From positions 90,001 to 122,000 of the forward strand of contig CAZPUN010000021.1 in the NCBI GenBank assembly GCA_964589775.1: a DNA stretch of 32,000 nt, written 5' to 3'. This document shows, one piece after another, positions 3,084 through 17,942 of this stretch. The position numbers and the translations under genes are program-made. A model generated the notes under the pieces. The model had not been told where the DNA came from, did no database searches, and was given only the letters and a program-made list of their open reading frames with translations. The stretch is from an uncultured archaeon (GTDB lineage: Archaea; Asgardarchaeota; Thorarchaeia; Thorarchaeales; CAZPUN01). How positions within the stretch are numbered: the first letter of the stretch is position 1; every line of letters starts with the position of its first letter.

Positions 3084-3200
3084 TTTATATCTTTTATTAT
3101 TTTATTTTTCATACTACAAAAGATAATTTTTTTAGATATTTCCCAAAATTTTTTATATAATCATAAGATATATGTATCAAAACAAACATTGGTGATATCA

Positions 3201-3587
3201 ATGCGAATTGCAATACCTTCAGCAGATCCAAATGGATTAGACGGTTATATCGCAGACCATTTTGGTCGAGCAGAATATTATACTTTTATTGATTTAGAAG
3301 ACAAGGAAATTAAAGATGTAAAAGTTGTTAAGACTCCTTTCGTTGAACATGGTCCTGGAGATATTCCCAAATTTGTTCAACAGAATGGGGGAAACCTTGT
3401 TATTGCACGTGGTATGGGTCATCGTGCTATTGAATTCTTCCAGCAATTGGGTATTGATGTTATTACAGGGGCCCAAGGAAAAATAAAAGATGTGATGGAT
3501 CTTTTCATCAAAGAATTATTGAAAAATGATGATTCATGGCGAAACGAATCACAATATCAACAACACAACCATGAGCATGGTGTCTAA
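3201..3587 (+). CDS. NifB/NifX (dinitrogenase Fe-Mo cofactor-binding) family protein with His-rich tail
   Basis: MRIAIP, HFGRAEYY and GMGHRA motifs; C-terminal QHNHEH; GGTGA upstream. Confidence 0.88.
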   Translation: MRIAIPSADPNGLDGYIADHFGRAEYYTFIDLEDKEIKDVKVVKTPFVEHGPGDIPKFVQQNGGNLVIARGMGHRAIEFFQQLGIDVITGAQGKIKDVMDLFIKELLKNDDSWRNESQYQQHNHEHGV

Positions 3588-10713: not shown

Positions 10714-11160
10714 TTACCAAGCTTTATCTATCTTTTTCGGGTCTAACCAAATTGGATTTGGCTTTCCATTTTCATAAACAACTTCAATTAATCTATCAAC
10801 CAAATATGCGGTTAATTTCTTCATGTGCTCCTTTAATTCATTATATTGGTCGAATCGCATCCTTACTATGTGTGCCATTAATACTTTTTTTGCTTCAGTG
10901 GGCATAGTTACTCCAACTAGTTTTCTCAGAAATTTTGTAATGGTCCTCTGTATATGGTAAACATAAAAATCCGCAATTCCAAAAATCGGCATGGAACCCA
11001 CATTGATATTATACCAGTATGATGAAATTGCTTCCCCCACAATATCGAACACTTCTTTAGGTTCGGCGCCGCATCTTGGACATTTTATTCCTTCTTTGTA
11101 TGCTATATATTCTAAACCACATTTTGGACATTTATGAGAATAATTCACATGAATTGCCAT
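10714..11160 (-). CDS. Zinc-ribbon protein
   Basis: CPKCG-x11-CPRCG at the N-terminus followed by a helical region; GGTGG before ATG 11160. Confidence 0.75.
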   Translation of the reverse strand: MAIHVNYSHKCPKCGLEYIAYKEGIKCPRCGAEPKEVFDIVGEAISSYWYNINVGSMPIFGIADFYVYHIQRTITKFLRKLVGVTMPTEAKKVLMAHIVRMRFDQYNELKEHMKKLTAYLVDRLIEVVYENGKPNPIWLDPKKIDKAW

Positions 11161-11250
11161 TTTTTCCACCGGGCTTGTGTTAACCCATTTATATTTTATG
11201 TATGATTTCTTTTATAAGGATTCTTTGGGGCATTATATATGTGAAGAATC

Positions 11251-14880: not shown

Positions 14881-16578
14881 TTATTTTTTGATTCTTTTTT
14901 CCTTTATAATTTTTAATAATTCTTTAAGTCCATTTTCAATGGACGGCCCTGTAATAATCGAAGTTTCTGTAAATAATGCTGGTAGTCCATTTTCGGCCTC
15001 TCTAGCTTTTGATATCAATTTGATTTTCTCTAATGCTTCGTCCTTTGAAACCGGTGCCTCGCCCATATCCTGATCATTCGCAGTGATAATGCGTAAATCA
15101 ATTTTGTTTCCAACAATAAGAATTGGTGTTTCAGGCCCTAACATTTGATTTATTTCTTTAACCCAATAGTCAATACTCTGATAGCTCCATCGATCTACAA
15201 CTGAATATACGATTATCGCTGCTTCTGCATCTGCATAGAATTTTCCACGTGTAATCTTTATTTTCTTAGCTTCATTCAAAGGCCAAATTTCTGTATCAAA
15301 AGCAACGTCCTTCAATGGAATTTCTTTTGTAAGAATTCTCATTGTGCTTAATGATGTTATTTGTTCTTCTTGTTCGTTGAACCCTATATTTTCAAATAGT
15401 GAACTCATTCCTACGTCATCTTCACCTAATACAACAACTTTAACTTTGTATTTGGGTAGTTCTCTTACAACTAATGTCTCTACTTCTTCTTTTTCTGTGG
15501 TTGGCGTCTCTGTAGGTGCTTCCACTTTGGTTTCTATGGCGGGTGCTTCCACTTTGGTTTCTATGGCGGGTGCTTCCACTTTGGTTTCATTTGATACAAT
15601 TTCGGGTTTAGAGGCTGATTCAGGAGTTATCTGTTTTTCATCACTATCATATTTTGTAGTCATCTGATCAATAATTCTCAATGTGTATGAAACTAGATCT
15701 TCTTCTGTTGTACTTTGTTTAATTGTTTCCTCCATAATTTGCTCTAGGACTTCTTCATCAGTTTTTTCAATTTGGGGTATTATAATTTTTCTTTCATGTG
15801 TAGACTCTTCCACTTTAGTTTCTGTGGTAGGTGCTTCTACTTTAGTTTCTACGGGAGGGCCTTCCACTTTAGTTTCTGTGGTGGGTGCTTCCACTTTGGT
15901 TTCTGTGGTGGGTGCTTCCACTTTGGTTTCTGTGGTGGGTGCTTCCACTTTGGTTTCTATGGCGGGTGCTTCCACTTTGGTTTCTATGGCGGGTGCTTCC
16001 ACTTTGGTTTCTATGGCGGGTGCTTCCACTTTAGTTTCTGTGGCGGGTGCTTCCACTTTAGTTTCTACGGGAGGGACTTCCACTTTGGTTTCTGTGGTGG
16101 GTGTTTTCACTTTAGTTTCTATGGCGGGTGCTTCTACTTTGGTTTCGCTTTTTCTTGTAGGGATCACTTCTTCAATTATGTCACTAATTATTTTTGACTT
16201 ATCAATAATCGGCTTTTTATCTGATTCTGGTATTGGCTTAGAAGTAGGTTCTATCGCTTCTGTTTGAGTTTCCTTAATTTCAGGTTTGATTGGTTCGACG
16301 GACCCCCAGATATCATCTGACTCAGGCTCTGGTTTAATTTCCTCTACTTCTACGAAGATTTTCTTAGCCTTTGGTATTCCAATCTTTAGCATGACTTCTT
16401 CAACTAATGCCGGCGGCAGTATCTTTCCTTTATAATAAAAGAAACGTTCTAGTTCTTTTCGGACTTGATCAAATGACTTTCCTTTTACTGGAATTGTTTT
16501 TATTAATCTGCCTTTATCCTTAATGCGTATTGTTTTTTGCTCCAATGTTATTCCAAATGTTGTTCCTGGGACAATCAA
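14881..16578 (-). CDS. Multidomain protein: N-terminal domain, long acidic Pro/Thr repeat linker, C-terminal Rab-like (pseudo)GTPase
   Basis: G1-like KVVVLGEDDVGMSS, FYADAEAAIIVYSV, G4 PILIVGNKIDL and G5 FTETS; GAGGAG before TTG. Confidence 0.85.
   Translation of the reverse strand: MIVPGTTFGITLEQKTIRIKDKGRLIKTIPVKGKSFDQVRKELERFFYYKGKILPPALVEEVMLKIGIPKAKKIFVEVEEIKPEPESDDIWGSVEPIKPEIKETQTEAIEPTSKPIPESDKKPIIDKSKIISDIIEEVIPTRKSETKVEAPAIETKVKTPTTETKVEVPPVETKVEAPATETKVEAPAIETKVEAPAIETKVEAPAIETKVEAPTTETKVEAPTTETKVEAPTTETKVEGPPVETKVEAPTTETKVEESTHERKIIIPQIEKTDEEVLEQIMEETIKQSTTEEDLVSYTLRIIDQMTTKYDSDEKQITPESASKPEIVSNETKVEAPAIETKVEAPAIETKVEAPTETPTTEKEEVETLVVRELPKYKVKVVVLGEDDVGMSSLFENIGFNEQEEQITSLSTMRILTKEIPLKDVAFDTEIWPLNEAKKIKITRGKFYADAEAAIIVYSVVDRWSYQSIDYWVKEINQMLGPETPILIVGNKIDLRIITANDQDMGEAPVSKDEALEKIKLISKAREAENGLPALFTETSIITGPSIENGLKELLKIIKEKRIKK
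15511..15588 (-). repeat. Second block of the 27-bp coding tandem repeat (about 3 units)
   Basis: Encodes ETKVEAPAI ETKVEAPAI ETKVEAPT. Confidence 0.92.
15808..16146 (-). repeat. 27-bp coding tandem repeat, 12 full units plus one partial (ETKVEAPxx)
   Basis: Plus-strand unit GGTGCTTCCACTTTGGTTTCTATGGCG and variants, head-to-tail with no spacers. Confidence 0.95.
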
Positions 16579-16682
16579 AGTTTTTGTCTCCTCTAAACAC
16601 GAATAATGATATTCATACTCAAAGTAAAATATATATGCTTTTAGTCTTTTAAATCAATCTAATAAATCTTGGCAGTGATACC

Positions 16683-17942
16683 ATGGATAAGTACGAAAAA
16701 TTAAAGTCCGGCGAGCGTGTGATTGTAGTTTCATTCATAGTTACAGTTTGTGTATTTATAGTTGAGATAATTGTGGGAATTCTCAGTAATAGTGTTTCAC
16801 TTACTGCTGATGCTATTCATACAGCAACAGACTCGTTAGGTATCATTGCTGTATTTTTCGGTTTAAAAATTGCACAACGTAAGCCTGATGAACGATTCCC
16901 GTATGGATATTACAAAGCTGAAAATATCGGCGCATTAGTTGTTGCCTTTATAATCTTATTAACTGCTGTGGATATTTTGGTTGATTCAATGGATGCAATT
17001 TTACATCCGCGAACATTAAGTATTCCTTTAGTAGCTTTGACCGTAGCAGCTGTTGGTACTGTTATTTCCTACCTTCTTGCGTATTATAAAGGAAAAACCG
17101 GAAGAAAAATAAATTCACAATCTCTTATTGCTGAAGCTGAACATTCTCGGATTGATGTTTTTGCAACAGCTCTTGTGTTTATTGGTATTCTAGTTTCATA
17201 TCTTGGATTTCCAATTGTAGAAGCCATGGCTGGTTTTATTGTTTCTATTTTTGTTGCTATTTCAGGTTTAGAAATTGCAAAAGATGCACTTTTTGTTCTT
17301 ATGGATGCATGTACAGATTCTGAGTTACCTATACAGCTAAAGGAATTTATAGAATCACATCCCAAAGTTGATGGAGTACACTCTATAAAGATTCGTCGTG
17401 CAGGGCCATTTCTTTTTGTTGATGCACATTTAGAGCTTGCACCTACATATTCTGTTAATTTTGCGCATGAAATCTGTGATGAACTTGAAGAACGTATTAA
17501 AGAAAAATTCAACAATATTGAATCTGTAAACTTTCACGTCGAACCTGGTACTGGGGATTCTAAGGTCATTGCAGTCCCTGTAGAATCAAGAGACGTAAGC
17601 TTAACAGATAGAATTTCATCGCATTTTTCAAGAGCACCATATTTTTTGATCATTCGAGTAAAGCATAAGGAGATAGTTGAAACAAAAATTGTTGAGAATC
17701 CTGCAAAAGATATATCCTCCAAAAAGGGATTAAAAATCGCTCATGTATTAGTAGATGCTGGGGTTACTGTTGTAATTACAAGGAATATCGGTGAAATTAC
17801 ATATTATGCATTAAACAGTCTTGGAATACTTATTTTTAGGACTGATGATGATGTTGTAGAAAATGTCGTAAAATTATTTTTGCAAGGAAAATTAAAATAT
17901 TATGAGCTCGCAATATCTGAAAAATTTGAAAAAAATAAGTAA
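16683..17942 (+). CDS. Cation diffusion facilitator (FieF-like) with a C-terminal NifB/NifX domain
   Basis: SVSLTADAIHTATD, PDERFPYGYYKAE, EAEHSRID and FHVEP; C-terminal IAVP...SHFSRAPYF...IGE. Confidence 0.9.
   Translation: MDKYEKLKSGERVIVVSFIVTVCVFIVEIIVGILSNSVSLTADAIHTATDSLGIIAVFFGLKIAQRKPDERFPYGYYKAENIGALVVAFIILLTAVDILVDSMDAILHPRTLSIPLVALTVAAVGTVISYLLAYYKGKTGRKINSQSLIAEAEHSRIDVFATALVFIGILVSYLGFPIVEAMAGFIVSIFVAISGLEIAKDALFVLMDACTDSELPIQLKEFIESHPKVDGVHSIKIRRAGPFLFVDAHLELAPTYSVNFAHEICDELEERIKEKFNNIESVNFHVEPGTGDSKVIAVPVESRDVSLTDRISSHFSRAPYFLIIRVKHKEIVETKIVENPAKDISSKKGLKIAHVLVDAGVTVVITRNIGEITYYALNSLGILIFRTDDDVVENVVKLFLQGKLKYYELAISEKFEKNK

What the first reader, a model, noticed from the sequence alone, without database searches (positions are those of the whole stretch)
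14881..16578. Rab-like pseudoGTPase tethered by a ~300-aa disordered acidic linker
Seen: G1 is GEDDVGMSS (P-loop Lys replaced by Met) and G3 WDTAG is replaced by WPLNE, while G4 NKID and G5 ETS are retained. A small N-terminal domain is separated by a long E/P/T/K linker. Known: the P-loop Lys and the G3 Asp/Gly are needed for phosphate/Mg binding and switching, while G4 and G5 read guanine. Inference: a non-switching guanine-nucleotide-binding or scaffold protein, possibly a long-range tether.
Basis: partly seen in the sequence, partly recalled or inferred. Interest (0 to 1): 0.75.

Follow-up and report, generated by a model that had tools for sequence, protein, structure and literature searches.

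The report
Thorarchaeal Rab-like pseudo-GTPase, extra-degenerate variant
This archaeal gene encodes a Rab-shaped protein that has lost the residues needed to act as a GTP switch, joined by a long floppy acidic arm to a small new basic domain; it belongs to a family found only in Thorarchaeota and is that family's most degenerate known member.

Summary
ORF 14881-16578 (-) encodes 565 aa in three parts: a basic beta-beta-beta-alpha-alpha head (aa 1-75), a 296-aa acidic E/T/K/P-rich arm with 16 copies of a 9-aa repeat, and a Rab-fold domain (Pfam Ras, E 6e-18).

The Rab-fold motifs read:
- G1 GEDDVGMSS
- G3 WPLNE
- G4 NKID
- G5 ETS

It is not an error or a decaying gene. A sister species carries the same Lys-to-Met change, and the three ordered modules are under strong purifying selection.

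The protein belongs to a family present in 57/60 genomes of the neighbouring Thorarchaeota family and in 0/190 other Asgard genomes searched. All 48 other orthologues lack the switch-I Thr and DxxG but keep the P-loop Lys, NKxD and ETSC.

Compared with those 48, the window lineage has changed four pocket positions: K391M, S433P, D435N and C541I. It also lacks the small zinc-finger gene that follows the gene in 46/46 assessable loci elsewhere.

Best reading: a non-switching adaptor, probably with weak or no nucleotide binding. The closest analogy is fungal versus metazoan dynein light intermediate chain.

The arm is not featureless: it holds a conserved amphipathic helix. This scan had already found the family in other Thorarchaeota genomes; no paper describing it was found.

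The parts
14881..16578 (-). Whole gene, 565 codons plus stop; TTG start
   Evidence: single copy in the genome
16354..16578 (-). N-terminal head domain, aa 1-75: three-stranded meander plus two helices, pI 10.2, net +10. No Pfam, PDB or Atlas match.
   Evidence: pN 0.04 versus the sister species
15466..16353 (-). Acidic E/T/K/P-rich arm, aa 76-371, net charge -36, mostly below pLDDT 50. At 313 aa by the motif-delimited measure it is the longest of 48 orthologues (median 188).
   Evidence: pN 0.31-0.39 versus the sister species
15807..16146 (-). 27-nt tandem repeat, 12.6 copies, encoding ETKV[EK]xPxx units (aa 145-261)
15515..15588 (-). Second block of the same 27-nt repeat, 2.7 copies (aa 331-357)
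15655..15756 (-). Helical island in the arm, aa 275-308. Aa 292-308 correspond to the family-conserved amphipathic helix (D[IV]xxALxxVExLSDSF in most members).
   Evidence: pN 0.10 versus the sister species for aa 263-312
14884..15465 (-). Rab-fold pseudo-GTPase domain, aa 372-565, pLDDT 90-97
15400..15426 (-). G1/P-loop GEDDVGMSS (aa 385-393). Met391 replaces the Lys found in 48/48 other orthologues.
15271..15285 (-). G3 position WPLNE (aa 432-436). No Asp57 or Gly60 equivalent. The family-invariant Asp (WSFD) is Asn435 here.
15097..15108 (-). G4 NKID (aa 491-494), invariant N, K and D in 48/48 orthologues
14959..14967 (-). G5 ETS (aa 538-540). The next residue is Ile541, where 45/46 orthologues have Cys and canonical Rabs have Ala.
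16588..16636 (-). Upstream signals: AGGAG at 16588-16592 (9 nt before TTG) and a TATA-like ATATATA at about 16628-16636. Both are conserved in the sister species.
   Evidence: read by eye

Best explanation
The gene encodes the local version of a protein family specific to one Thorarchaeota order.

**Architecture**
- A small basic head domain.
- A long acidic disordered arm that carries one conserved amphipathic helix.
- A C-terminal Rab-fold domain that is a pseudo-GTPase.

**Why it cannot switch**
- Throughout the family the G domain lacks the gamma-phosphate sensors: the switch-I Thr and the G3 Asp/Gly.
- It usually also lacks the Mg-binding Ser/Thr.
- It therefore cannot work as a GTP/GDP switch or hydrolyse GTP in the canonical way.
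- Most members keep the P-loop Lys plus G4 and G5. They probably still hold a guanine nucleotide as a fixed cofactor.

**What is special here**
- In the window's lineage the pocket has degenerated further (K391M, D435N, C541I).
- The domain most likely binds nucleotide weakly or not at all.
- It then acts purely as a constitutive protein-docking platform.
- The head and the linker helix would be further binding sites, and the repeat-expanded arm a flexible spacer of freely variable length.

**Shown versus inferred**
- Shown: architecture, motif states, conservation, selection and distribution.
- Inferred: loss of switching (from textbook roles of the motifs), the nucleotide state, and the adaptor/spacer role.
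For: **Fold and family**
- Pfam Ras match.
- The best PDB sequence and fold matches are Rabs and Thor-Rab 7EZB, TM about 0.8 on the target.

**Motif census over 48 orthologues from other species**

| Position | Other orthologues | Window |
|---|---|---|
| P-loop Lys | K 48/48 | M |
| Mg-binding Ser/Thr | S in 4/48; otherwise E/R/G/H/K/A/Q/L | S |
| Asp57 position | never D | P |
| Gly60 position | never G | E |
| Gln61 position | A 48/48 | A |
| Family Asp (WSFD) | D 47/48 | N |
| G4 N, K, D | 48/48 each | N, K, D |
| G5 Ser | 46/46 | S |
| Residue after G5 Ser | C 45/46 | I |

**Loss of the P-loop Lys elsewhere**
- Three other family members have also lost the Lys: P0015 (M), P0035 (V) and P0025 (R).

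**The gene is functional**
- The sister species (GCA_053940065.1) has the same substitutions and the same gene neighbourhood.
- pN is 0.04 (head), 0.10 (helix island) and 0.11 (G domain), against 0.31-0.39 in the arm.
- pS is saturated at 0.54-0.76.

**Accelerated G domain in this lineage**
- G domain: 32% identity to the main family, against 49% among main-family members.
- Head: 40% against 51%.

**Arm**
- Arm length ranges from 121 to 313 aa across orthologues, with constant acidic and Pro-rich composition.

**Precedent**
- In dynein light intermediate chain, metazoan forms with an intact P-loop but no DxxG bind GDP for stability.
- Fungal forms with the P-loop Lys replaced by Gln and the DxxG Asp replaced by Thr bind none.
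- A disordered region beside the G domain carries the cargo-adaptor sites (PMC4359372).
Against: - No biochemical data exist for any member.
- N491, K492 and D494 are strictly retained, and Ser392 sits at the Mg-binding position. Both under purifying selection could mean that the window protein still binds guanine nucleotide.
- No partner is identified in this genome.
- The head domain has no recognisable fold relative, so its binding role is a guess.
- The adaptor model is partly a default for pseudo-enzymes.
Confidence: 0.68

Rival explanations
1. The window protein is a constitutively nucleotide-loaded pseudo-GTPase. It still binds GDP or GTP tightly through G4, G5, the P-loop backbone and Ser392, and uses the nucleotide as a structural cofactor, as Rnd/RhoH or metazoan dynein LIC do.
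For: - NKID and ETS are intact and under purifying selection.
- The P-loop Gly pattern GxxxVG is invariant.
- Ser392 has appeared at the Mg position exactly where Lys was lost.
- Human LIC1 binds GDP without DxxG.
Against: - The P-loop Lys is the main phosphate ligand. LIC1 K80A is unstable, and fungal LIC with Gln at this site binds nothing.
- Cys541 to Ile puts a bulky residue at the G5 position that packs on the guanine base (inference from Ras A146).
- Asp435 to Asn removes the only conserved acidic residue of the G3 region.
Confidence: 0.25
2. It is a real but unconventional GTPase. Catalytic and phosphate-binding residues have migrated, or are supplied in trans by the head domain, the linker helix or a partner.
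For: - The head has near-invariant PGTT and DKG motifs.
- The head's pLDDT rises from about 80 alone to about 95 in the full-length model.
- Pseudo-enzymes with migrated residues are known (PMC10211241 abstract).
Against: - No positive evidence of a contact between head and G domain.
- The Mg-binding position tolerates E, R, G, H, K, A, Q and L across the family, which argues against any conserved catalytic geometry.
- No conserved Gln or Arg stands out as a candidate catalytic residue.
Confidence: 0.05
3. Sequencing or assembly error, or a gene in recent decay. The Lys-to-Met change and the repeat arm would then be artefacts.
For: - Lys (AAG/AAA) to Met (ATG) is a single base change.
- A 340-nt array of 27-nt repeats is hard to assemble, so the copy number could be wrong.
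Against: - An independent assembly of a sister species has the same Met, the same WPL motif and its own different repeats.
- Both frames are intact, and pN/pS is low in the ordered parts.
- The repeat units are only 85-88% alike, which helps assembly.
Confidence: 0.02

Closest known systems
Thorarchaeota Rab (Thor-Rab, PDB 7EZB/7EZD/7EZE; PMC10933270) and eukaryotic Rab21/Rab11/Rab5
   Same: - Same Ras/Rab fold: Foldseek E about 1e-11, TM on target 0.77-0.82.
- Sequence E 1e-16 to 1e-11.
- G4 NKxD, G5 ETS and the YxxA...VYD/S...SF...W..E core are shared.
- Like Thor-Rab, it has no C-terminal Cys for prenylation.
   Different: - Thor-Rab binds GDP/Mg and GTPgammaS and has complete G1-G3.
- This protein has Met for the P-loop Lys, no switch-I Thr and no DxxG.
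- It carries a 371-aa N-terminal extension (head plus arm).
Dynein light intermediate chain (LIC), fungal versus metazoan (PMC4359372)
   Same: - A Ras-like domain without DxxG that is not a switch.
- Within one family, members with an intact P-loop bind GDP as a stabiliser, while members with the P-loop Lys and the G3 Asp replaced bind nothing.
- A neighbouring disordered region carries the partner-binding elements.
   Different: - Analogy only; no specific sequence relationship was found.
- In LIC the disordered region is C-terminal; here it is N-terminal.
- LIC has no counterpart of the basic head domain.
Class i pseudo-GTPases (CENP-M, p190RhoGAP pG1/pG2, AAGAB psGD; PMC5593906, PMC12490416)
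   Same: G fold used as a protein-protein interaction module without nucleotide cycling.
   Different: Those have lost G4 and G5 as well. Here G4 is perfect and G5 nearly so, so the domain is intermediate between class i and the nucleotide-binding classes.
RGK GTPases (Rad, Gem, Rem) and 'large Rabs' (CRACR2A, Rab44/45); from my own knowledge, not tested here
   Same: - RGK proteins keep G1, G4 and G5 but have non-canonical G2 and G3, and are regulated through terminal extensions.
- Large Rabs carry an N-terminal domain and a long linker ahead of a C-terminal Rab domain.
   Different: - RGK proteins and large Rabs bind nucleotide and are eukaryotic.
- No orthology is implied.

Membership tests
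Ras superfamily small G domain (Pfam PF00071) | Profile match above the curated cut-off, and a Ras/Rab fold | tested here: met
   65.4 bits against a cut-off of 21.6. Foldseek top 50 are all small GTPases, TM on target about 0.8.
Functional small GTPase (switch) | G1 GxxxxGK[S/T] with the P-loop Lys | tested here: not met
   GEDDVGMSS; Met391 aligns with the Lys of Rab21. K is present in 48/48 other orthologues.
Functional small GTPase (switch) | G2 switch-I Thr and G3 DxxG | tested here: not met
   WPLNE at G3. No D or G at the Asp57 or Gly60 positions in any of 49 orthologues, and no conserved Thr in switch I.
Functional small GTPase (switch) | G4 [N/T]KxD and G5 SA[K/L]-type motif | tested here: met
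   NKID and ETS are present. However, the Ala-equivalent after the Ser is Ile541.
Functional small GTPase (switch) | Binds and hydrolyses GTP | not testable with these tools
   Needs purified protein.
Rab family sensu stricto | C-terminal Cys prenylation motif and RabF1-F5 motifs | tested here: not met
   The protein ends in a basic tail (KEKRIKK) and contains no Cys at all (read by eye). Only the RabF4/F5-like FYADA...IVYS is recognisable; the RabF1 IGVDF and RabF3 equivalents are absent (read by eye).
Pseudo-GTPase (G fold lacking catalytic motifs) | G fold with conserved, selected loss of catalytic or nucleotide-binding residues | tested here: met
Thorarchaeota head-arm-Rab-like family (unnamed) | N-terminal beta-beta-beta-alpha-alpha head matching the family profile | tested here: met
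   E 2.4e-32; 40% median identity to main-family heads.
Thorarchaeota head-arm-Rab-like family (unnamed) | Acidic arm with the conserved amphipathic helix | tested here: met
   Aa 292-308 keep the h-x3-L-x2-h-x2-h-x3-[FY] spacing of the family helix. They are predicted helical.
Thorarchaeota head-arm-Rab-like family (unnamed) | G1 GExxVGK and G3 W[SC]FD | tested here: not met
   Window and sister species have GEDDVGM and WPLN/WPLS. This makes them a divergent sub-lineage.
Thorarchaeota head-arm-Rab-like family (unnamed) | About 105-aa C4 + C2H2 zinc-finger gene immediately downstream on the same strand | tested here: not met
   Present in 46/46 assessable loci of other species. Absent from the window, from the sister locus, and not found in the 96.75%-complete genome with a profile.

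The most novel reading that the evidence does not exclude
**Proposal**
- In Thorarchaeota, the pseudo-Rab and the small C4 + C2H2 zinc-finger protein encoded just downstream form a primitive Rab/effector-like pair. I recall that the C2H2 fingers of EEA1 and Rabenosyn-5 bind Rab5.
- In this pair a permanently loaded nucleotide would serve only to shape the binding face.

**The window lineage as a natural experiment**
- This lineage lost the zinc-finger gene.
- With it went the constraint on the nucleotide pocket (K391M, D435N, C541I), and G-domain evolution accelerated.
- The head and the linker helix were kept, which points to a second, nucleotide-independent function.
Probability: 0.15. Interest if true: 0.75.

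Novelty: new variant of a known kind. Interest (0 to 1): 0.58.

Why it matters
**Context**
- Asgard small GTPases are studied as forerunners of eukaryotic membrane-traffic switches.
- The one Thorarchaeota example solved so far, Thor-Rab, is a bona fide nucleotide binder (PMC10933270).
- I found no paper describing an archaeal pseudo-GTPase.

**What this family shows**
- Present in almost every genome of one Asgard order, it shows that conversion of a Rab-like switch into a fixed scaffold also happened in archaea. In eukaryotes such conversion is known from dynein LIC, CENP-M and AAGAB.
- The archaeal scaffold comes with its own new head domain and an operon partner.

**What the window variant adds**
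- It gives a graded natural series: Lys kept versus Lys lost, and partner present versus absent.
- That series makes the role of nucleotide binding in such scaffolds directly testable with a few recombinant proteins.

Tried and rejected
**Head domain**
- Foldseek against PDB gave no match at E <= 0.001.
- VIA-align wide gave a best Z of 6.0, to a de novo designed protein, then Z 4-5 to assorted ribosomal and phage proteins. This is common-arrangement level.
- The ESM Atlas shape search gave only unnamed or unrelated clusters.
- The Atlas feature search gave no usable hit.
- A PDB profile search gave nothing below E 0.05.
- Pfam gave nothing.
- I considered a helix-hairpin-helix (the IG[LIV]P motif) and a ribosomal L9 N-domain likeness by eye. 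Neither is supported by any tool.

**Head against G domain**
- Complex prediction of the head against the G domain returned 'no answer' (score 0.00, controls not run).
- That result is not evidence either way.

**Other attempts**
- The search for related loci with the head alignment failed for lack of a conserved 7-10-column stretch. It worked with the full-length alignment.
I therefore have no read-level check of the repeat copy number and no expression data.
- A word-index search for short stand-alone head homologues found only gene fragments.

**G-domain tree**
- The FastTree G-domain tree places the window pair on a very long branch next to the paralogous subfamily.
- I treat this as long-branch attraction, because the head domain is clearly main-family type.

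**Neighbours and literature**
- A link to the roadblock and longin genes of the window is rejected. They lie 8-9 kb away and are not syntenic with the gene in 50 other loci.
- Literature searches found no description of this family.
Full report
**The gene**

ORF 14881..16578 on the minus strand encodes 565 aa from a TTG start. Three things support that start.
- Every family N-terminus begins M/L-I-[IV]-P-G-T-T.
- An AGGAG lies 9 nt upstream.
- A TATA-like ATATATA lies about 50 nt upstream.

Both upstream elements are conserved in a sister species. The gene is single-copy in a 2.16-Mb, 96.75%-complete genome.

**Anatomy**

- *Head.* AlphaFold2 with family alignments gives a small head, aa 1-75. 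It has strands 8-13, 16-21 and 24-30 and helices 36-49 and 56-66. Its pLDDT is about 80 alone and about 95 in the full-length model.
- *Arm.* Aa 76-371 are mostly below pLDDT 50.
- *Helical island.* Aa 275-308 form a helical island inside the arm (pLDDT about 60-70).
- *G domain.* Aa 372-565 form a confident Ras fold (pLDDT 90-97).
- *Charge.* The head is basic (pI 10.2, net +10). The arm is acidic (net -36; E 20%, T 15%, K 11%, P 10%).
- *Repeats.* Two blocks of a 27-nt tandem repeat (15807-16146 and 15515-15588) give 16 ETKVEAPxx units.

**Motifs**

Pfam Ras matches aa 380-558 (E 5.9e-18). The HMMER alignment to Rab21 fixes the register.

| Window residue | Canonical position (Ras numbering) |
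|---|---|
| Met391 | P-loop Lys |
| Ser392 | Mg-binding Ser/Thr |
| Pro433 | Asp57 |
| Glu436 | Gly60 |
| Ala437 | Gln61 |

NKID (491-494) and ETS (538-540) are in place.

About 20 other Ras-superfamily genes in the same genome have GK[ST]. This is the only one with GM.

**Not an artefact**

The closest homologue is P0003, from assembly GCA_053940065.1. It is 83% identical in the G domain and has GEDDVGMSA and WPLS. It also shares the window's gene neighbourhood: CDF transporter, 165-aa membrane protein, geranylgeranyl reductase, TrmB, arginase.

Between the two species synonymous sites are saturated (pS 0.54-0.76). Non-synonymous differences are:

| Region | pN |
|---|---|
| Head | 0.04 |
| Helix island | 0.10 |
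| G domain | 0.11 |
| Arm | 0.31-0.39 |

Three ordered modules are under strong purifying selection, and the arm evolves freely.

**The family**

An exhaustive HMMER search found about 35 clusters (at 50% identity) with the same head-arm-G architecture. A scan of species-representative genomes returned 51 loci, nearly all labelled Thorarchaeota.

The head profile gave these counts:
- 57 of 60 genomes of the neighbouring family in the same order had a match.
- 0 of 190 genomes from 26 other families of the phylum had a match.

The window's genome belongs to a separate family of that order.

Some genomes have two or three paralogues. Some also have stand-alone 77-aa head homologues, in an unrelated neighbourhood of Usp, RACo, a class II aminoacyl-tRNA synthetase and HMG-CoA reductase.

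**Motif census over 48 orthologues from other species**

| Position | Other orthologues | Window |
|---|---|---|
| P-loop Lys | K 48/48 | M |
| Mg-binding position | S in 4/48; otherwise E, R, G, H, K, A, Q, L | S |
| Asp57 position | S 42, C 3, L 2, N 1 | P |
| Two residues on (family Asp) | D 47/48 | N |
| Gly60 position | never G | E |
| Gln61 position | A 48/48 | A |
| G4 N, K, D | 48/48 each | N, K, D |
| G5 Ser | 46/46 | S |
| Residue after G5 Ser | C 45/46 | I |

No conserved Thr exists in switch I.

Loss of the gamma-phosphate and Mg machinery is therefore ancient and family-wide. Loss of the Lys is specific to the window lineage among orthologues, but has recurred in three other family members: P0015 (M), P0035 (V) and P0025 (R).

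The window G domain is only 32% identical to main-family domains, which are 49% identical to each other. The head is 40% against 51%. The G domain accelerated in this lineage and then settled under constraint.

**The arm is not featureless**

Family linkers share a strongly conserved amphipathic helix, D[IV]xxALxxVExLSDSF. It is followed by an I-x-I-x-L-x-G-x-x-E strand-like motif.

In the window the helix is recognisable at aa 292-308 with the same hydrophobic spacing, and it is predicted helical. The repeat expansion lies N-terminal to it.

Arm length ranges from 121 to 313 aa across orthologues (median 188). The window's is the longest.

**Gene neighbourhood**

In other Thorarchaeota the gene is followed on the same strand by a roughly 105-aa protein, whose reading frame opens mostly 30-176 nt after the gene's stop. 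This protein has an N-terminal CxxC...CxxC and a C-terminal C2H2-type finger. Ten of 18 members hit zf_C2H2_ZHX (best E 6e-5), and there are weak FYVE hits.
- 46 of 51 loci have it.
- Of the five without, three end at a contig edge and two are divergent paralogues.

A phosphoribosyltransferase lies divergently upstream, and an ABC/FtsX transporter lies further downstream.

The window and its sister locus lack the zinc-finger gene. A profile search of the whole genome found none. The roadblock and longin genes of the window are 8-9 kb away and do not recur near the gene in other genomes.

**Interpretation**

From the textbook roles of G1-G5 (as summarised in PMC4359372), the family cannot sense or hydrolyse the gamma-phosphate in the canonical way.

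Strict conservation of the P-loop Lys, NKxD and ETSC in the main family argues that those proteins still hold a guanine nucleotide as a fixed cofactor.

The window lineage has replaced three pocket residues conserved in at least 45 of the other orthologues (the Lys, the family Asp and the G5 Cys), plus the Ser kept in 42 of 48 at the Asp57 position. I therefore favour weak or no nucleotide binding here, about 2:1 over retained binding.

Dynein LIC offers a close precedent. Metazoan LIC (intact P-loop, no DxxG) binds GDP for stability. Fungal LIC (Lys to Gln, Asp to Thr) is nucleotide-free. A disordered flank carries the partner-binding sites.

I read the protein as a non-switching adaptor:
- the Rab-fold platform, the basic head and the linker helix are binding modules;
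- an entropic, PEVK-like spacer joins them.

The adaptor role and the spacer role are inference.

**What remains open**
- The fold class and ligand of the head.
- Whether the head docks on the G domain in cis.
- Whether the zinc-finger protein is a physical partner.
- The nucleotide state.

**Prior notes from this scan**

This scan had already flagged the same family in several other Thorarchaeota genomes. One follow-up reached the same family-level conclusion. My analysis was done independently before that look-up and agrees.

New here are:
- the extra-degenerate pocket of this lineage;
- the conserved zinc-finger neighbour and its absence here;
- the conserved linker helix;
- the selection analysis.

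Noticed in passing
L032:9379-9696 (+) and the equivalent position in 46 of 51 related loci: A conserved gene for a roughly 105-aa two-zinc-finger protein (CxxC...CxxC plus a C2H2-type finger). Its reading frame opens mostly 30-176 nt downstream of the pseudo-GTPase gene, on the same strand, in other Thorarchaeota. It is absent from the window, from the sister locus, and not found in the window's genome.
   Followed up: partly
L060:4959-5192 (-), L062:4956-5189 (-), L061:5001-5234 (+), L063:4911-5234 (+): Stand-alone 77-aa proteins homologous to the head domain (E 1e-5 to 1e-8). They sit in a conserved neighbourhood of HMG-CoA reductase, a class II aminoacyl-tRNA synthetase, Usp and RACo. The head is therefore an independent module.
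   Followed up: partly
window 10714-11169 (-): A 151-aa protein matching Pfam P21-Arc (ARP2/3 complex subunit ARPC3) at 28.7 bits (cut-off 25), with a small zinc-ribbon-like CxxC segment. It is conserved next to the same genes in the sister species.
   Followed up: no
window 16683-17942 (+): A cation-diffusion-facilitator transporter fused to a C-terminal NifX/NafY-like (Nitro_FeMo-Co) domain. It is transcribed divergently from the pseudo-GTPase gene and shares a 104-nt intergenic region. A stand-alone NifX-like gene lies at 3189-3587.
   Followed up: no
proteins P0009, P0010, P0021, P0026, P0043: Proteins of 570-750 aa with three or four separate Ras-like stretches (tandem G domains) ranked among the best hits to the G domain. 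Their origin and motif state were not examined.
   Followed up: no
P0015, P0035, P0042, P0066; L050:7974-9110: A paralogous subfamily with a shorter arm (134-157 aa), a one-residue deletion in the head and a C-terminal extension. Two of its four representative proteins have also lost the P-loop Lys (to M and V).
   Followed up: partly
window 14881-16578, model m358dcdf47812 versus m4a52b1b9bde7: The head domain's pLDDT is 75-85 when folded alone but 94-96 within the full-length model. This could reflect a cis contact with the G domain or only the different alignment.
   Followed up: partly
own genome G000: 22 Ras-family matches in a 2.16-Mb genome, several inside longer open frames of 296-652 aa. 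Four lie on the window's own contig, outside the window.
   Followed up: no
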